A stretch of 64,000 nucleotides of DNA from an uncultured Acidobacteriota bacterium (GCA_963843275.1 CAWJJM010000004.1:502237-566236), one strand, 5' to 3'; shown: positions 580 through 9,182, counted from the stretch's first letter. Notes: generated by a model from the letters alone, not told the origin. Numbers and translations: made by a program.

Positions 580-1113
580 CTACGGCGACCAGAGCTCCAG
601 CGTGACGTTGTAGTGGGCGAAGAGCCCGGCGGAGGTGACCGGGTCCTGGCCGGCGGTCTCCGCGAACTCGATCGAGATCCGGTCGCCGGCATTCACCGGC
701 ACCGCCGTGGTGGTGTCGGACAGGTTCGCGTCCCCCTCCGCTTGCGTGTGAGCCAGGGAGAGGGCGGTGTCGACCTGGTTGACCCGGACCGTCACCCGGA
801 CCACGGCGGCGGGGTTCTCGAGCGTGGTGGACGGCGCGACGAACAGGTTGCGCAGGGTCCCGGACCGCGGCAGCGCGTAGAGGACCGAGCTCTCCCGCGT
901 TTCCGGCTGGTTCTCCCGCTCGAACATCGCGTAGCGGGTCAGCCCCGCATCGCTGACGTTGGCCGACCCGGTCAGCAGCAGAACCGTGGTGCCGCCACCC
1001 GATCCCGGCGGCCCCGGCGGACCCGGCGGCGCCGCGGGTCCCCGGCAGCCAGCGAGGGCGAGAGCTGTGACGACGGCGGCGGCGCAGGCCGCGACGCGGT
1101 TTCTCCGGCGCAT
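580..1113 (-). CDS. Lipoprotein with short collagen-like (Gly-X-Y) stretch and a beta-rich C-terminal domain (BclA-C/C1q-like by inference)
   Basis: AAGGAG RBS 6 nt before ATG 1113; basic N-terminus MRRRNR, hydrophobic core, lipobox LAG-C; then GPAAPPGPPGPPGSGGG; C-terminal beta-strand pattern (PRSGTLRNLFV...VTVRVNQVDTALSL...VPVNAGDRISIEF). Confidence 0.75.
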   Translation of the reverse strand: MRRRNRVAACAAAVVTALALAGCRGPAAPPGPPGPPGSGGGTTVLLLTGSANVSDAGLTRYAMFERENQPETRESSVLYALPRSGTLRNLFVAPSTTLENPAAVVRVTVRVNQVDTALSLAHTQAEGDANLSDTTTAVPVNAGDRISIEFAETAGQDPVTSAGLFAHYNVTLELWSP

Positions 1114-1251
1114 CGGCATCTCCTTTTCCAGGGTGGGGTGGCCGCAGGATCGCCGCCGCCCCCACCCCGCCGCGGGCCCGTGCGAGCCTCTCCTCGAGGC
1201 TCTCCCTAGCCGGAAGCTGGCGGCGCCCGACCGAGCGGCGGCCACCCGCCG

Positions 1252-1752
1252 CTACGGTGCCACCGCCTCCAGCCGGTCGCAGCTCAGCCGGATCTCCTCG
1301 ACGGGCGGCGACTCGCCGTCGGCGCGCAGCTCCCACTTCGAGGGGAAGCAGTGGACGAGGTGCCAGCGGAAGCGTTCCGCGCAGGGGCCGCTGGGCTCGC
1401 CGCCGCACAGGACGAGGTCGGCGTCGGGGCGCTCGGTCGCCGTCGCCGGGTCGAGCAGCCAGTCGAACAGCTCGGCGCTGGCCGTGAAGCCGCGCTTGAG
1501 GACCAGGTCGCCGTACTTGAGGCGGCCAGGGAGCTTGCGGACCACGTCGGGATCGCCGCCCTCGCGATACTCGACGACCTCGATCTCCGCCCCGAGACCG
1601 TCGACGCCCCGGAACGCGCCCATCGTCGCGTCGCCGACGACGAGGACGAAGTGGTAGCTGTGGACGGGCCGGTCGGCCGGACGGTCCGCCCCGGCGAGGC
1701 CGGGGACCGCCAGCGCGACGGCCAGGGCGAGTAGGACGGGCATCGCTCGCAT
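1252..1752 (-). CDS. Phage T4 gp19 / eCIS Afp1-like tail-tube protein with N-terminal signal peptide
   Basis: Family motifs F..V....G.F..V.GL..E.EVVEYREGG....VRKLPGRLKYGDLVLKRG....ELFDW...RW.L..CFPSKW...VEEIRLSCDRL; N-terminal MRAMPVLLALAVALAVPGLAGA-D resembles a Sec signal peptide. Confidence 0.88.
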   Translation of the reverse strand: MRAMPVLLALAVALAVPGLAGADRPADRPVHSYHFVLVVGDATMGAFRGVDGLGAEIEVVEYREGGDPDVVRKLPGRLKYGDLVLKRGFTASAELFDWLLDPATATERPDADLVLCGGEPSGPCAERFRWHLVHCFPSKWELRADGESPPVEEIRLSCDRLEAVAP

Positions 1753-2068
1753 GGTGCCGCTCCCCTGGCACCCGGTCCCGCCCGCGGGGTCCACCCCTCC
1801 CCGGCACGGGCTCCGGCGCCGGTCGTGAACGCTGTGCTACGGCTCTTTCGCTCGATCGTAGCACCGCTCCGTCCGAGGCCCGGCTCCAGAGACCGGTGGC
1901 AGCATCGAGGGCGGTCAGCGGAGCCAGCACCGTGGCGCCCGACAGGCTGCGAGCAAGGGAAAACGGTCGAGGAGCGCGCGGCAGGGCCGCTGAGGCGTGC
2001 TTCAGTACGCCGCCGGCGGCCCGAGCGAGCAGCGACGCCGCAGATTGACCCGCATCCGCCCTCTCGCC

Positions 2069-3373: not shown

Positions 3374-3596
3374 CCTGGGCCTCGGGTTCTATCACAGGGC
3401 GGGACGGTCTCCGTGGCAGCGCTGCGGCCGATCCCGACCGTCCCGATCCGTGGCGGCCCCGGACGTGCCGCGAGCCACCCCGAACGCAGCGCCGCCCGGT
3501 CGGCTAAGATCACGACCTCTCCTCTTGAGAGCTGGGCTCGCGGCGCCGGGTCTCCCGGCGGCTCGCGGGCCATCGGATTCGCGGACCGGAACGAGG

Positions 3597-6319
3597 ATGG
3601 CCGGGAGCACCCTGATCGGAGACCGCGTCGGCCCCTACGAGATCACCGCCAAGCTCGGCGAGGGCGGCATGGGGGAGGTGTACCGGGCGCGCGACGACCG
3701 GCTGGGGCGCGAGGTGGCGATCAAGGTGCTGCCCGAGGCCTTCACCGAGGACGAGCAGCGCCTGGCGCGCTTCGAGCGCGAGGCGCAGCTGCTGGCCCAG
3801 CTCCACCACCCCCACATCGCCTCCGATCTACGGCCTCGAGGAGGCCGCCGGCAGCGCGGGCCCTGGTGATGGAGCTGGTCGAGGGGCCGACGCTGGCCGA
3901 GCGGCTGCCAGGGCGGCGCTCTGCCGATCGAGGAGGCCCTGCGCGTCGCGCGCCAGATCGCCGAGGCGCTCGAGGCGGCGCACGACAAGGGGATCATCCA
4001 CCGCGACCTCAAGCCCGCCAACGTCAAGGTCTCGGCCGACGGTACCGTCAAGGTGCTCGACTTCGGGCTCGCCAAGGCGATGGACCCGGCGTCGGCGTCG
4101 GGCCCGGAGTCCGCGGCGCGGCTCGCCGCCTCCCCGACGCTGACCCTGGGGGCCACCGCCCAGGGGCTGATCCTCGGCACCGCCGCCTACATGGCCCCGG
4201 AGCAGGCGCAAGGGGCTGGCGGTCGACAAGCGGGCCGACATCTGGGCCTTCGGGGTGGTGCTCTGGGAGATGCTGACCGGGCGGCGGCTCTTCGAGGGCG
4301 ACACGGTGCCGGAGACCCTGGCCGGGGTGCTCAAGTCCGACATCGACCTCGACGCCGCTGCCGGAGTCGACGCCGCCCGCCGTCCGCCGGCTGCTGCGCC
4401 GCTGCCTCGAGCGCAACCCGAAGAACCGCCTGCACGACATCGCCGACGCGCGGATCGTCCTCGAGGACGTCCTTTCGGGAGCCGATCGGGAAGCGACGAG
4501 CACCGACGCCGCAACGGGCACGGGCGTTCGTCGCCGCGCCTGGACCCGCTGGGCGGTCGCGGCGATCGTTCTCGTCGCGGTGGGCGCCGCCGGCTTCGTC
4601 GCCGGCCGGATGGCGTGGCGCTCCCTGGGCTCCGCCGCCGAGCCGCTGCACATGTCGATCCGGCTCGCTCCGAACCAGGAGTTCGGCGAGGCGGGCGGCA
4701 CGACGCTGGTCTTCTCCCCCGACGGAACCTCCCTGATCTTCGAGGGGCGGGAGAACGGCCGCCGCCTGTTGCTGCGGCGGCGGCTGGACAGCGGGGAGGT
4801 CGAGGCGATCCCCGGGACCGACGACGCCGAGTTTCCGTTCTTCTCCCCCGACGGACGTTGGATCGGGTTCAGCTCCGGCGGTTTCCTGCAGAAGGTGCCG
4901 GCGGACGGGGGGCGGCCCTTCCCGCTCGCCGAGGCGCGCGGCGCCGGGGGAGCGTGCTGGTTGCGCGACGGCACCATCGTCTACGCCCCGATCTACTCGG
5001 ACGGCCTCTTCCGCGTGGCGGCGGAGGGCGGCCGCAGCGAACGGCTGACGACGCCCGACCACGCCGACGGCGAGCTCGGGCACTGGTGGCCGACGCCGCT
5101 GCCCGGGGAGCGGAAGGTGCTGTTCACCGCCTTCCACACGCCGATGGACACCTCGCGCATCGGCGTGCTCGACCTCGGGACGCAGCGGATCGAGTGGATC
5201 GTCGACGGCGGCTTCTACGCCACCTACCTCCCCACCGGGCACCTGATCTACGCCAAGGGCAAGCGGCTCTACGCACTGCCGTTCGACCCCGAGCGAGCGC
5301 GGCCGACCGGCCGGCCGGTCGCCCTCGTCGACGACGTGATGACCTCGCAGTCGAGCGGTTTCGCGGAGTACGCGGTGTCCTCGCGCGGCGTTCTCGCCTA
5401 CGCCACCGAGACGCTGGCGAGCCCGCCGCAGCGACTCGTCTGGCTGGATCGGGAGGGACACGCCAGCGACGCCCTGGACGAGAGGCGGAAGTACCAGTCG
5501 GTCAGCCTGGCGCCGGACGGGCGCGCGGCGGCGCTCACGCTCCTCGGCGACAGCCGCGACCTGTGGACCTACTCGTTCGATCGCCGCACCCTGTCGCGGC
5601 TGACGACCGGCGCCGCGACCGAGTTCGGTCCCGCCTGGTCACGCGACGGCCGCGAGCTCTTCTACGTCGTCGACGTGCCGCCGTTCACCCTCTACCGCAT
5701 CGGCGTCGGCGCGCCCGACTCGGGCAAGCCGTTGTGGGAGGAGAGGGCGGAAGTCGACACGGTGCAGGCCACGCCGTCCGCAGACGGCCGGACCCTCGTG
5801 TTCTCGCGCGATGAGCAGGGGACCGGCCAGAACCTCTACCTGCGACCGATCGACGGCAGCGCACCGCCACGAGCGCTGCTCGCGACGCGCGCCACCGAGC
5901 AGTACCCGACCCTCTCCCCGGACGGGCGCTGGATGGCCTACGAGTCGAACGAGACCGGCCGGTTCGAGATCTACGCCGAGCCGCTGGACGGCTCTGGAAA
6001 CCGGGTCCAGGTCTCCTCCGACGGGGGCCGCGAGCCGCTCTGGGCGGCGAACGGCGACCTCTTCTTCCGCCACGACGACGAGATGCGGGTGGTGGCGACC
6101 CATGCCGGTGCGCGACTGGAGCTCGAACCGACGCGCATGCTCTTCCGCGCCGCCCTCGTCGCCAACGCCAACGAGAACATGCGCACCTACGACGTCACGG
6201 AGGACGGCTCCCGCATCCTCGCCATCGCCACCCCGGAGGAGAGCCGCCCGCGCCAGATCGAGGTCGTCACCGGATGGACGCGGCAACTCCCGGGCCTGGC
6301 ACCCGACGGCTCGCAGTGA
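3597..6319 (+). CDS. Hanks-type Ser/Thr kinase - TM - PD40/TolB-like beta-propeller; broken by about 5 single-base insertions (near 3825, 3853, 3908, 4209, 4358)
   Basis: [40 protein letters not shown] spread over frames; TM near 4550-4610; repeated FSPDG/WSRDG/LSPDG units in ORF 4580-6319. Confidence 0.9.
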
Positions 6320-7321
6320 CCGCGCGGGGCCGGGGCGGACCGCCGGCCGGCTCCGGGTCTCGGCAGGGTCACGCCCACGTGATCGGGGAACGGACCGGTC
6401 CCTGCAAGGGGACCGCGCGGTTAGGATGTCGCTCGGACCTCCCGTGAAACGAGCGCCGTCATGACGATGGAACCCGGCGTCCGCGTCGGCCCCTACGAGA
6501 TCACCGCCAAGCTCGGCGAGGGCGGCATGGGGGAGGTGTACCGGGCGCGCGACGACCGGCTCGGGCGCGAGGTGGCGATCAAGGTGCTGCCGCCGGCCTT
6601 CGCCGCCGACGAGCGAGCGCCTGGCCCGCTTCGAGCGCGAGGCGCGGCTGCTGGCCCAGCTCCAGCACCCCCACATCGCCTCGATCTACGGGCTCGAGGA
6701 GTCCGACGGCAGCGCGGGCCCTGGTCCTGGAGCTGGTCGAGGGGCCGACGCTGGCCGAGCGGCTCGCAGGGCGGCGCCCTGCCGATCGAGGAGGCCCTGA
6801 CCGTCGCGCGGCAGATCGCCGAGGCGCTCGAGGCGGCGCACGAGAAGGGCATCGTCCACCGCGACCTCAAGCCCGCCAACGTCAAGGTCACCGCCGACGG
6901 ACCGGTCAAGGTGCTCGACTTCGGGCTGGCCAAGGCGATGGACCCGGCGTCGGCGTCGGGCCCGGAGTCCGCGGCGCGGCTCGCCGCCTCCGCCGACGCT
7001 CACCCTGGCGGCCACCGCCCAGGGCCTGATCCTCGGCACGCGCCGCCTACATGGCGCCGGAGCAGGCGCAAGGGGCTGGCGGTCGACAAGCGGGCCGACA
7101 TCTGGGCCTTCGGGGTGGTCCTCTGCGAGATGCTGACCGGGCGGCGGCTCTTCGAGGGCGACTCGGTGCCCGACACCCTGGCCGGGGTGCTCAAGTCCGA
7201 CATCGACCTCGACGCCCTGCCGGAGTCGACGCCGCCCGCCATCCGCCGCCTGCTGCGCCGCTGCCTCGAGCGCAACCCGCGCAACCGCCTGCGCGACATC
7301 GGCGACGCACGGATCGTCCTC
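3624..7321 (+). repeat. Near-identical direct repeat of the kinase-domain DNA (about 3624-4460 and about 6482-7321)
   Basis: Long identical stretches, e.g. cgcgtcggcccctacgagatcaccgccaagctcggcgagggcggcatgggggaggtgtaccgggcgcgcgacgaccggct and atggacccggcgtcggcgtcgggcccggagtccgcggcgcggctcgccgcctcc. Confidence 0.9.
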
Positions 7322-9182
7322 TCCGAGGTGCTCGCCGGGACGGGGGCCGAGCCGGTGCGGCCCGCGGTCGTGACGAGCCGCCCGCGCCGTTCCGTGGCGA
7401 GGCTTCGTGGCCGCGATCGTCGTCGCGGCCGCTCTCGGCGCGCTGCTGGCGCTGGCACTCCGTCCCGCACCGCCACCCACCGATCCCGTGCGCGATCCGC
7501 CGGCTCACCTTCTCCGGCGACGACCAGCAGCCGTCGGCCTCCCCCGACGGCCGCTTCGTCGCCTTCGCCTCGACCCGCGACGGCACCTCGCGGATCTGGC
7601 TCAAGCAGATGGACGGGGGCGGCGAGCAGGCGCTGACCGGAGGGCCCGACGTCCGGCCGCGCTTCGCCCCCGACGGCAACTCCGTCGGCTTCCTGCGCCA
7701 GGTGGCGACGGATCGCTTCGATCTCTTCCGGACGGCGCTCGTCGGCGGCCAGCCGCGACGCATTGCTCTCCGACGTCAACGACTTCGACTGGTCGCCGGA
7801 CGGGCGCCGCGTGGCGTTCCTCCGCAGCAGCCGGAGGACCGAGAACGTCGACGTCACGACCCTGGGGATCTTCGATCCGGCGACGCGCCGCGAGCGCACG
7901 CGTCCTCGAGCTCGAGGGTTGGCTCCTGCTCGGCGTGCGTTGGCGGCCCGACGGCGGTCGGATCGCGGTGACGCGCGGCGGCCCGGTCGGCGCCGCGGGC
8001 GGCTGGGAGATCCTGCTGGTGGATCCGGACACCGGCGCCAGCGAGCACCTCGAGGCGGGCGAGCGGCTGGGGGTGATCTCGGCGAGCACCTGGGACCCGC
8101 GTGGCGAGGGGCTCTACTACGCGGCGTCGACCGACACCGTGGGCGACCTGACGGGTGGCCCCGGCGAGGTCCGCCACCTGAAGGTCGGCGGCGCCCCGAG
8201 GACGCTCTTCTGGGCGTCCGGCCTCTTCCCGTTCCGGGGCTCGGGCGCCATCTACTCGACGCTCTCGCTGCTCGGGCGGGACCGGCTCGTCTTCGACACC
8301 TGGGAGCAGAGCGAGTCGCTGCGCGAGGTCGACCTCGTTGACGGCACCGTCCACCAGCTCACCAGGAGCCTCGGCACCGACCGCCAGCCGGCCTACTCCC
8401 CCGACGGGCGCTACCTGATCTTCTCCTCCAACCGGACCGGCAACCTCGACCTGTGGCGGCTGGACCGCGCGTCGGGCGAGCTGCGCCAGCTCACCGACGA
8501 CCCCGCCCAGGACTGGGACCCCGGCTTCACCCCGGACGGCAGCCGCATCCTGTTCAGCTCCGGGCGCGGCGGCACGGGCCTCGAGATCTGGAGCGTCGCC
8601 CCCGACGGCAGCGATCCCCGCCAGATCACTCACGACGGCGTCGACGCCGAGAACCCCACCATGACCCCCGACGGGCGCTGGATCGTCTACACCTCGGGAA
8701 ACACGGCGCACCTGGGCCTGTTCCGCATCCACCCCGACGGCACCGAGCCGACCCGGTTGACCAGCGGCAACCACACCAACGGCGAGGTTTCGCCGGACGG
8801 GCGCTGGGCGCTGTTCGTCTCGTCGAACGATCTCGGTGCGCAGGTCCTCTTCGTCGAGGTCGCCACCGGGCGCCTGGGGAAGGCGTCGATCTCCCTGCTG
8901 TCGGGGGGCCGCGAGCCGAGCGTCACCTTCGGGCGCGGCCGCTGGATGGGCGGCGGCGGCGAGGTGGCCTACGTGGGGATGGACGAACGCGGCCGCACCG
9001 GGATCTTCGCGCAGCGCTTCGACCCCGACCGCGACACCTCCGCCACCCGGCGGAAGCTCGCGGGGTTCTTCGACGACGTCAAGACCGAGTCGTTCGGCGT
9101 CGCCCCCGACGACTCGGCGATCACCCTGGCCGTGACGCGCGAGACCCGTAGCCTGCTGCTCGCTGAGGGGCTCCCGCAGTAG
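6461..9182 (+). CDS. Second Ser/Thr kinase - TM - PD40 beta-propeller; broken by about 10 single-base insertions between ~6615 and ~7900
   Basis: Same kinase motifs; PD40 repeats (PAYSPDG, PGFTPDG, PTMTPDG, EVSPDG); pieces in ORFs 6461, 7051, 7407 and 7763 join into one reading frame with +1 shifts. Confidence 0.9.

What the first reader, a model, noticed from the sequence alone, without database searches (positions are those of the whole stretch)
1252..1752. Orphan contractile-injection-system tail-tube protein with a Sec signal peptide and added cysteines
Seen: a full-length gp19/Afp1-type tube sequence (EYREGG..VRKLPGRLKYGDLVLKRG, ELFDW, FPSKW) preceded by MRAMPVLLALAVALAVPGLAGA-D. It has four Cys, two of them flanking a turn (LVLC-GGEPSGP-CAERF). 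No sheath, baseplate, spike or other tail gene is in the 64 kb. Known: eCIS and phage tubes assemble in the cytoplasm, have no signal peptide, and sit beside a sheath gene. Inference: a domesticated tube exported to the periplasm or surface, possibly disulfide-stabilised, polymerising as a sheath-less filament or conduit. This is the best candidate for an undescribed system here.
Basis: partly seen in the sequence, partly recalled or inferred. Interest (0 to 1): 0.88.

Follow-up and report, generated by a model that had tools for sequence, protein, structure and literature searches.

The report
Exported solitary phage-tail tube protein
A lone gene encodes the inner-tube building block of phage-tail-like injection machines, but with an export signal and with no other machine part in the genome; it belongs to a large group of such exported tube proteins, found in many phyla, for which I found no published description and whose role is unknown.

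Summary
Window 1752..1252 (minus strand) encodes a 166-aa protein. Residues 32-161 are a complete PF06841/TIGR02241 tail-tube domain, preceded by a classical Sec-type signal (MR / AMPVLLALAVALAV / PGLAGA|D). Every start codon that keeps the domain intact also includes the hydrophobic segment.

The AlphaFold model is confident for the domain. It matches the inner tubes of AlgoCIS, Anabaena CIS, PVC and Afp.

The 80%-complete genome has no other tube, sheath, baseplate-J or other CIS core gene. In related genomes, 26 of 29 that carry a tube also carry a sheath, usually about 1 kb away.

About half of the nearest 50%-identity cluster representatives carry signal-like N-termini: mostly SPase-I type, a few lipobox, a few Tat type. 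The trait clusters on a domain-only tree. Nine such genes in named genomes of seven lineages are solitary, and 7 of those 9 genomes lack a sheath. None of 80 tube ORFs on viral contigs has a signal.

The cysteines are not a family trait. C116/C124 are private to this protein, and C135(+C158) recurs in part of the clade. The downstream lipoprotein is not a conserved partner.

Export and a role independent of any injection machine are well supported in silico. Ring or filament formation and the biological function remain inferred.

The parts
1252..1752 (-). ORF P0001, 166 aa plus stop: precursor of the exported tail-tube-family protein
   Evidence: Translation. PF06841 and TIGR02241 both score above their cut-offs. 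GC3 is 0.95, like neighbouring genes. The ORF is a single frame that aligns to the tube HMM over positions 7-144 of 145.
1687..1752 (-). Predicted Sec/SPase-I signal peptide, residues 1-22 (MRAMPVLLALAVALAVPGLAGA), with predicted cleavage before Asp23
   Evidence: n-, h- and c-regions and the A-x-A motif were read from the sequence. AF2 pLDDT is below 56 for residues 1-30. Hydrophobicity maximum is 3.08. 21 of 22 members of its tree clade carry such an N-terminus. SignalP was not available.
1760..1765 (-). Shine-Dalgarno-like GGGGAG, 7 nt upstream of the ATG at 1752
   Evidence: Read from the sequence.
1270..1659 (-). PF06841 tail-tube domain, residues 32-161, including the family's most conserved hairpin motif EVVEYREGGDPDVVRKLPGRLKYGDLVLKRG
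   Evidence: The motif columns are shared by signal-bearing and signal-less relatives.
1381..1407 (-). C116-GGEPSGP-C124: a four-residue-longer hairpin turn flanked by two Cys; a possible disulfide staple, private to this protein
   Evidence: A VKOR-type disulfide-forming enzyme is present in the genome.
1348..1350 (-). Cys135 codon, at a position that is Cys in 26 of 78 signal-bearing relatives and 7 of 162 signal-less ones
1279..1281 (-). Cys158 codon; it co-occurs with the Cys135 column in 6 signal-bearing relatives
   Evidence: and alignment A2 (P0166 and P0060 share both Cys).
1114..1251 (-). GC-rich, strongly structured intergenic spacer after the tube stop codon; possibly a terminator without a U-tract
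   Evidence: Fold of 1105-1265: -98.5 kcal/mol, z -2.4. No consensus terminator was found.
580..1113 (-). P0002, the downstream same-strand gene: a lipoprotein (LALAGC lipobox) with short collagen-like GPP triplets and a ~130-aa all-beta domain. It is a neighbour, not a conserved partner.
   Evidence: It has its own AAGGAG ribosome-binding site (sequence). 11 homologues at 58-82% identity, none beside a tube gene.

Best explanation
P0001 is a stand-alone homologue of the inner-tube protein of contractile injection systems (Cis1/Afp1/Pvc1 type) that has been re-used outside the cytoplasm.

Proposed sequence of events:
- It is translated with a Sec-type signal peptide and exported across the inner membrane of this probably acidobacterial diderm.
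- Signal peptidase I cuts it after AGA22. The mature product is 144 residues, 15.9 kDa, pI 4.9, the same length and charge as a normal tube subunit.
- It acts without sheath, baseplate or spike.

It keeps the complete tube fold and the most conserved hairpin and core motifs of ring-forming tube proteins. Relatives include signal-bearing tandem two-domain versions. The most likely molecular behaviour is therefore self-association into Hcp-like hexameric rings, perhaps short stacks, in the periplasm or at the cell surface. In this protein the assembly may be stiffened by one or two disulfides.

Status of each step:
- Shown: domain identity, fold, intact frame, signal-like N-terminus conserved at clade level, solitary context, and absence of CIS genes.
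- Inferred: actual export and cleavage, disulfides, oligomerisation, and the biological role (structural or binding ring, rather than injection).
For: Domain and fold:
- PF06841 and TIGR02241 score above their cut-offs.
- PDB sequence hits are to AlgoCIS, Anabaena, PVC and Afp tubes.
- The AF2 domain has pLDDT 85-96. Foldseek top hits are 7aeb, 7b5h, 9qgl, 6j0b and 6rao, with TM 0.72-0.74.

Signal:
- Tripartite sequence with an AGA|D site, and no alternative start.
- About 73 of the 148 nearest 50%-cluster representatives carry such N-termini.
- On a domain-only tree the trait changes 24 times, against 66 in shuffles (minimum 57). The window protein lies in a clade with 21 of 22 signal-bearing members, and in a second tree 44 of 47.
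- Other members use lipobox or Tat-type (SRRxLL) signals, so export is reached by several routes.

Selection: dN/dS of the domain is 0.18-0.25 in the nearest signal-bearing trio.

Orphan status:
- One tube, no sheath and no Baseplate_J in the genome.
- No BLAST hit specific to a CIS core gene for nine CIS core clusters; the only hit is a short 51-residue match for cluster 3 (45 bits, E 3e-6).
- Positive control: 26 of 29 related genomes with a tube also have a sheath, usually within 1 kb.
- Signal-bearing genes in nine named genomes (Chloroflexota, Acidobacteriota, Pseudomonadota, a 'Deltaproteobacteria' MAG, Peregrinibacteria) are all solitary. 7 of those 9 genomes lack a sheath.
- 0 of 80 tube ORFs on 68 viral contigs carry a signal.

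Ring-forming potential:
- Core motif columns are shared with canonical tubes.
- Mature length and charge equal those of canonical tubes.
- Signal-bearing tandem two-domain relatives exist.

Disulfide feasibility: a VKOR homologue is present.
Against: - No experimental or SignalP-type confirmation of export or cleavage. The 20-residue hydrophobic stretch could stay as a membrane anchor.
- The genome is only about 80% complete, so a CIS locus on a missing piece cannot be strictly excluded.
- Canonical tube proteins normally need a baseplate or initiator to polymerise. Nothing here shows that rings or filaments form, and no multimer prediction was possible.
- The canonical N-terminal R-x-DPY motif is weaker in the signal-bearing group.
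- The window protein has no orthologue above 43% identity in 5.8 billion proteins, nor in 60 related genomes. Its own conservation therefore cannot be measured; selection was measured only in a sister subclade.
- No conserved neighbour, defence-system hit or fusion partner points to a function.
Confidence: 0.78

Rival explanations
1. The hydrophobic N-terminus is an uncleaved signal anchor. The tube domain is then tethered to the outer face of the inner membrane rather than released.
For: The hydrophobic stretch plus c-region is about 20 residues, long enough to span a membrane. Earlier scan notes describe membrane-anchored relatives in other genomes (unchecked). Some relatives have lipoboxes, which means they are tethered.
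Against: Pro at -6, small residues at -3 and -1, and an acidic +1 residue are typical of SPase I cleavage. The h-region core is only 14 residues. Most relatives show similar A-x-A motifs.
Confidence: 0.12
2. The exported tube protein is a decoy or defence factor. A periplasmic or surface tube subunit would cap or jam the tube of incoming contractile phage tails, tailocins or CIS.
For: It is a tube-fold protein located where foreign tubes arrive. The phyletic pattern is patchy and HGT-like: there is no orthologue in 60 relatives and the protein is a singleton in the database.
Against: No PADLOC match. The neighbours are housekeeping, kinase or transport genes, not defence islands. None is encoded on viral contigs. 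There is no direct evidence.
Confidence: 0.07
3. It is the ordinary cytoplasmic tube of an eCIS or prophage whose other genes lie in the unassembled 20% of the genome, and the signal is a gene-calling artefact.
For: MAG completeness is 80%. Related genomes often have CIS.
Against: No start codon gives an intact domain without the signal. In relatives the tube lies within about 1 kb of the sheath, whereas here the flanks are a symporter and a lipoprotein on a 735-kb contig. All tubes in related genomes lack signals. 7 of 9 other signal-tube genomes lack a sheath.
Confidence: 0.02
4. It is a decaying remnant with no function.
For: Singleton sequence, with an unusual loop insertion and a 3-residue deletion.
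Against: The frame is intact, the HMM match is full length, the fold prediction is confident, and codon usage is typical of the genome (GC3 0.95). The sister subclade is under purifying selection.
Confidence: 0.03

Closest known systems
Inner-tube proteins of extracellular and thylakoid-anchored contractile injection systems (Cis1 type: Algoriphagus AlgoCIS 7adz/7aeb, Anabaena All3324 7b5h, Photorhabdus Pvc1 6j0b/9qgl, Serratia Afp1 6rao)
   Same: Same Pfam and TIGRFAM family, same fold (TM 0.72-0.74), same length and acidic charge once the signal is removed, and the same conserved EYREGG..VRKLPG..KY..LKRG hairpin and core motifs.
   Different: It has an N-terminal export signal. There is no adjacent sheath and no baseplate, spike or cap genes in the genome. 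It scores far below the NCBIfam CIS1 and CIS5 equivalog cut-offs. It has a 4-residue longer Cys-flanked hairpin turn and a 3-residue deletion after the FPSKW strand.
T6SS Hcp (TssD)
   Same: Same superfold. Hcp forms hexameric rings on its own and also serves as a chaperone or carrier (own knowledge), which is the behaviour proposed here.
   Different: There is only a weak structural match (TMq 0.45-0.49) and no sequence match. Hcp leaves the cell through the T6SS, not via Sec, and has no signal peptide.
Sheath-less cytoplasmic 'small partner + tube' gene pairs seen here in Actinomycetota, Acidobacteriota and Chloroflexota MAGs (no published name found)
   Same: These are also tube genes without sheath or baseplate, and they are among the closest signal-less relatives (38-41% identity).
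   Different: They lack a signal peptide and always carry a conserved ~125-aa upstream gene, which is absent from this genome.
Phage myovirus tail tube proteins (T4 gp19; PHROG 4542)
   Same: Same fold family.
   Different: Only a weak match (PHROG 26.6 bits; Foldseek T4 gp19 E about 6e-5). None of the signal-bearing genes lies on a viral contig.

Membership tests
PF06841 / TIGR02241 (gp19-Afp1-type tail tube family) | HMM score above the curated cut-off over the full domain | tested here: met
   PF06841 scores 82.8 bits against 28.2, HMM positions 2-133 of 134. TIGR02241 scores 76.8 against 62.4.
PF06841 / TIGR02241 (gp19-Afp1-type tail tube family) | Tube-protein beta-sandwich fold with an extended hairpin | tested here: met
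   The AF2 domain has pLDDT 85-96. The top 21 Foldseek PDB hits are all CIS or myophage tube proteins.
NCBIfam CIS1_fam / CIS5_fam equivalogs (functional eCIS tube / tube adaptor) | Score above the equivalog cut-off | tested here: not met
   CIS5 scores 59.9 bits against a cut-off of 260. CIS1 scores 22.2 against 220.
Extracellular contractile injection system (eCIS/CIS) component | Sheath gene adjacent to, or in the same genome as, the tube gene | tested here: not met
   No PF04984 hit in the genome and no BLAST hit to the sheath cluster. Control: 26 of 29 relatives with a tube have a sheath. Caveat: 80% completeness.
Extracellular contractile injection system (eCIS/CIS) component | Baseplate, spike and gp25-like genes in the locus | tested here: not met
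   No PF04865 hit. Clusters 3-9 and 12 from full CIS loci give no specific hit in the genome.
Extracellular contractile injection system (eCIS/CIS) component | Cytoplasmic assembly, meaning no export signal on the tube subunit | tested here: not met
   A signal-like N-terminus is present and unavoidable. All 80 viral tube ORFs and all tubes in relatives lack one.
Sec-dependent secretory protein (SPase I substrate) | Tripartite signal: positive n-region, hydrophobic h-region, c-region with small residues at -3 and -1 | tested here: met
   Seen by inspection and a hydrophobicity scan, and conserved across the clade. No SignalP-type predictor was available.
Sec-dependent secretory protein (SPase I substrate) | Actual translocation and cleavage | not testable with these tools
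   Needs reporter fusions, fractionation or mass spectrometry.
T6SS Hcp | Sequence membership of the Hcp family, and T6SS genes in the genome | tested here: inconclusive
   Pfam lists only PF06841 for P0001. Structural similarity to Hcp is weak. T6SS genes were not searched for specifically.
Known anti-phage defence systems (PADLOC) | Match to a PADLOC model | tested here: not met
   No hit for P0001 or P0002.

The most novel reading that the evidence does not exclude
Sec-, Tat- and lipoprotein-exported homologues of the contractile-tail inner tube form a widespread class of extracytoplasmic proteins. They would assemble, without sheath or baseplate, into rings or tubules in the periplasm or on the cell surface. 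That would be a sheath-independent nanotube, conduit or scaffold derived from phage tails. The window protein would be a disulfide-stapled member of this class.
Probability: 0.3. Interest if true: 0.85.

Novelty: new variant of a known kind. Interest (0 to 1): 0.62.

Why it matters
Tube proteins of phage tails, tailocins, eCIS and T6SS are all thought to be made and assembled in the cytoplasm on a baseplate and inside a sheath. A large, multi-phylum set of tube proteins that carry Sec, lipoprotein or Tat export signals and occur without any other machine part would be a further domestication of a phage-tail module. It would also raise a testable question: what does a tube subunit do alone outside the membrane?

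Practically, these genes are currently annotated 'phage tail protein'. That label can inflate prophage and eCIS counts in MAGs.

This window adds one clean example on a 735-kb contig, with genome-wide negative controls and lineage-matched positive controls. It also shows that the cysteines are not a family-wide trait.

Tried and rejected
1. Downstream lipoprotein P0002 as a system partner: rejected. Its 11 homologues (58-82% identity) sit in varied contexts without any tube gene. No homologue occurs in other signal-tube loci. Its AF2 model was too poor (pLDDT 53.7) to justify a fold search.

2. Link to the tail-fibre-tip (Collar) cassette noted elsewhere in this genome: rejected. Only 2 of 10 signal-tube genomes have PF07484.

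3. Phage origin or phage-encoded superinfection exclusion: 0 of 80 tube ORFs on viral contigs carry a signal.

4. Defence-system membership: no PADLOC hit.

5. Frameshift artefact creating the Cys loop: rejected.

6. Informative domain fusions: the multi-domain relatives are only tandem tube domains, with one AAA fusion.

7. Conserved neighbours across signal-tube loci: none. The neighbours are often secreted or surface proteins (subtilase with Ig/cadherin domains, TSP3-repeat protein, PEP-CTERM protein, LRR lipoprotein, Cu/Zn SOD), but they are not homologous between loci.

8. Single versus multiple origin of the signal: unresolved. The trait is strongly clustered, but the AU test does not reject one clade (p 0.21).

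9. The locus scan with the 70-sequence alignment failed because the alignment was too diverse. It was repeated with 12 sequences.

11. Literature: four full-text searches found no description of exported tube proteins. The library is limited to open-access papers and bioRxiv.

Full report
**1. What is in the sequence**

- Pfam PF06841 (Phage_T4_gp19) matches residues 32-161, covering HMM positions 2-133 of 134, at E 2.6e-23.
- TIGR02241 scores 76.8 bits, above its cut-off of 62.4.
- The NCBIfam equivalog models for functional eCIS tube (CIS1) and tube adaptor (CIS5) score only 22 and 60 bits, against cut-offs of 220 and 260.
- GC3 is 0.95, like the neighbouring genes.
- The frame aligns end to end with an HMM I built from 139 canonical tubes, and no alternative frame matches. 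The unusual loop is therefore not a frameshift artefact.

**2. The N-terminus**

The sequence MRAMPVLLALAVALAVPGLAGA|DRPADRP has one Arg in the n-region, a 14-residue hydrophobic core, a Pro at -6, Ala at -3 and -1, and Asp at +1.
- A GGGGAG motif lies 7 nt upstream of the ATG.
- Between Met4 and Met44, which is already inside the first sheet, there is no ATG, GTG or TTG. Every start that yields an intact domain, including the upstream GTG at 1794, includes the hydrophobic segment.
- AlphaFold gives pLDDT below 56 for residues 1-30 and 85-96 for the domain.
- After the predicted cleavage the mature protein has 144 residues, 15.9 kDa and pI 4.9. Its N-terminus is co-linear with the N-terminus of canonical tubes (139-148 aa, median pI 5.15).
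- SignalP was not available, so cleavage is inferred.

**3. Fold and closest solved relatives**

phmmer against the PDB finds AlgoCIS chains (7aeb_Y at 1e-12, 7adz at 3e-11), Streptomyces CIS 9gtp, Anabaena All3324 (7b5h), Pvc1 (6j0b) and Afp1 (6rao). Foldseek with the model gives the same set, at probability 1.0 and target-normalised TM 0.72-0.74. T4 gp19 and Hcp follow far behind. PHROGs gives only a weak tail-tube match. The protein is therefore a CIS-type, not a phage-type, tube.

**4. Orphan status**

The window lies on a 735-kb contig of a 4.65-Mb, 12-contig MAG with 74% GC and 80% estimated completeness.
- The genome has one PF06841 hit, no PF04984 sheath and no Baseplate_J.
- As an independent check I clustered the ORFs of 71 tube loci from other genomes. 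I took nine recurrent CIS core clusters (sheath, VgrG-like, gp25-like, baseplate-J-like and others) and BLASTed them against the six-frame translation of the genome. There were no specific hits: only one short 51-residue match for cluster 3, and the generic AAA ATPase cluster also matched.
- Positive control: among 60 genomes of the same family or order, 29 have a tube hit. 26 of those also have a sheath, typically about 1 kb from the tube. All tubes in those relatives lack a signal.
- The flanks here are a DAACS-type symporter upstream and a lipoprotein downstream.

**5. The protein is not alone: a clade of exported tubes**

An exhaustive phmmer search of 1.84 billion cluster representatives gives 2,834 hits. 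Of the best 148, about 73 carry an N-terminal hydrophobic extension before the domain. The query's own signal biases the ranking somewhat.
- Most look like SPase I substrates. A few have lipoboxes, and several have clear Tat motifs (SRRxLL followed by a Gly/Ala-rich h-region, for example P0158, P0214, P0233 and P0243). Export by three different routes argues that location outside the cytoplasm is what is selected.
- On a domain-only tree of 240 proteins the trait needs 24 changes, against 66 (minimum 57) for shuffled labels. The window protein sits in a clade with 21 of 22 signal-bearing members (SH-aLRT 86).
- In a second tree that includes tubes of known context, the window protein lies in a 47-member clade with 44 signal-bearing members. 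Further signal-bearing clades are interleaved with eCIS tubes. An AU test does not reject a single clade of all signal-bearing tubes (p 0.21), so the number of origins is open.
- In the nearest subclade (P0003, P0006 and P0007) the domain has dN/dS 0.18-0.25. The signal region changes faster but stays hydrophobic.

**6. Context elsewhere**

A scan of one genome per species found signal-bearing copies in the following lineages:
- Dehalococcoidia
- two other Chloroflexota
- an Acidobacteriota MAG
- Polarisedimenticolia
- a 'Deltaproteobacteria' MAG
- Ectothiorhodospiraceae
- another gammaproteobacterium
- a Peregrinibacteria (CPR) MAG

Each is a single gene with no second tube or CIS gene within 10 kb. 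7 of the 9 genomes have no sheath, and 6 of 9 have no Baseplate_J.

The neighbours are unrelated between loci but are often secreted or envelope proteins: an S8 subtilase with Ig/cadherin domains, a TSP3-repeat giant, a PEP-CTERM protein, an LRR lipoprotein, a PMT-type glycosyltransferase and a periplasmic Cu/Zn SOD. None of 80 tube ORFs on 68 viral contigs has a signal. There is no PADLOC match.

**7. The window copy is a singleton**

- Its best match in 5.8 billion proteins is 40-43% identical, and none of 60 relatives has an orthologue.
- By contrast the downstream lipoprotein P0002 has 11 homologues at 58-82% identity, one of them named from an Acidobacteriota MAG. None of these is next to a tube gene, so the two genes are not a conserved pair.
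- P0002 has its own AAGGAG ribosome-binding site. The 138-nt spacer between the genes is highly structured.

**8. Cysteines**

The Cys residues are at 116, 124, 135 and 158.
- C116 and C124 flank a turn that is four residues longer than usual, between strands 111-117 and 125-133. This pair is private to this protein.
- The column of C135 is Cys in 26 of 78 signal-bearing proteins and 7 of 162 signal-less ones. All six signal-bearing proteins with Cys at the C158 column also have C135. That is consistent with a strand-to-strand disulfide in a subset of the clade.
- However, 32 of 78 signal-bearing proteins have no domain Cys, and another covarying Cys pair (columns 115/137) is common in cytoplasmic tubes.
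- Disulfide stabilisation is therefore plausible for this protein, and a VKOR homologue is present in the genome (no DsbB). It does not define the group.

**9. How it most likely works**

Supported by sequence evidence, though not shown experimentally: the protein is exported, is independent of any injection machine, and keeps the tube fold.

Inferred: after export it oligomerises into Hcp-like hexameric rings or short stacks. Three observations support this:
- The core and hairpin motifs that are invariant in ring-forming tubes are equally conserved in the signal-bearing group.
- Mature size and charge match canonical tubes.
- Signal-bearing tandem two-domain versions exist. In other tube families such duplications give pseudo-hexameric trimers (own knowledge).

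Against this, canonical tubes normally need an initiator, and the N-terminal R-x-DPY motif is relaxed in the group. The biological role (scaffold, binding ring, conduit or decoy) is unknown.

**10. Known or new**

Four full-text searches found no description of exported tube proteins. Earlier notes of this scan report the same class in several other genomes. These are unchecked leads. My searches reproduced their main claims independently:
- signal-bearing, solitary genes in many phyla;
- some Tat-type or lipidated members;
- tandem forms;
- a separate sheath-less signal-free branch.

I file this as a new variant of a known kind: a known fold and family in an undescribed cellular location and context.

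**Limits**

The genome is an 80%-complete MAG. Signal prediction was heuristic. No multimer modelling was possible. The trees rest on about 140 columns.

Noticed in passing
window 580-1113 (-): P0002 belongs to a small, apparently Acidobacteriota-restricted family of lipoproteins. Each has a lipobox (L-x-G-C), then 3-6 collagen-like G-P-P triplets, then a conserved ~130-aa all-beta domain with no Pfam match. The AF2 model has low confidence (pLDDT 54).
   Followed up: partly
window ~3560-9182 (+): Two tandem Ser/Thr-kinase genes with TolB-like beta-propeller C-termini. Their kinase motifs are spread over more than one reading frame (frame switch near 4205; scrambled stretch in 6461-7636). They are either pseudogenes or indel errors of the assembly. 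About 32 kinase-domain loci exist in the genome. An Acidobacteriota signal-tube locus (L035) is also flanked by such kinases.
   Followed up: partly
window 1834-1864 (upstream of the tube gene, minus strand): A perfect 8-bp inverted repeat, GTGCTACG-N15-CGTAGCAC, in the 316-bp region between the symporter stop and the tube start. It could be an operator or an RNA hairpin. No sigma-70-like promoter was found by the consensus scan.
   Followed up: no
loci L013:9604-9975, L019:9630-9995, L020:9555-9974, L034:5253-5681 and 23 others: A second kind of sheath-less tube module. In 27 loci (Gaiellaceae and other Actinomycetota, Terriglobia, Pyrinomonadaceae, Chloroflexia, Limisphaerales) a signal-less tube gene is directly preceded by a conserved ~125-aa gene with no Pfam family (motif PDVIVD..F..GLLF..V.NIG..PA ... 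HDLEIYR). 17 of the 21 well-flanked tube loci that lack any CIS core gene have it.
   Followed up: partly
protein P0123 (5355 aa, metagenomic representative): A giant protein with a signal-like N-terminus and an Hcp-like 'YMKLGDIKGES' start. It carries 5-6 PF06841 tube domains around residues 3900-4500.
   Followed up: no
proteins P0158, P0214, P0233, P0243: Tube-domain proteins with classical twin-arginine (SRRxLL plus Gly/Ala-rich) signal peptides. This implies export of the folded tube domain by Tat in some lineages.
   Followed up: partly
proteins P0122, P0163, P0171, P0206, P0231, P0245: Signal-bearing proteins with two complete tandem PF06841 domains and no other Pfam domain.
   Followed up: partly
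genome contig C4:477593-477973 (-), about 25 kb upstream of the window: A VKOR-family domain inside a 424-aa ORF, probably a VKOR-thioredoxin fusion. No DsbB is present in the genome.
   Followed up: no
window 1114-1251: The tube-lipoprotein spacer folds into three strong GC hairpins, the first starting at the tube stop codon (z -2.4). There is no U-tract.
   Followed up: partly
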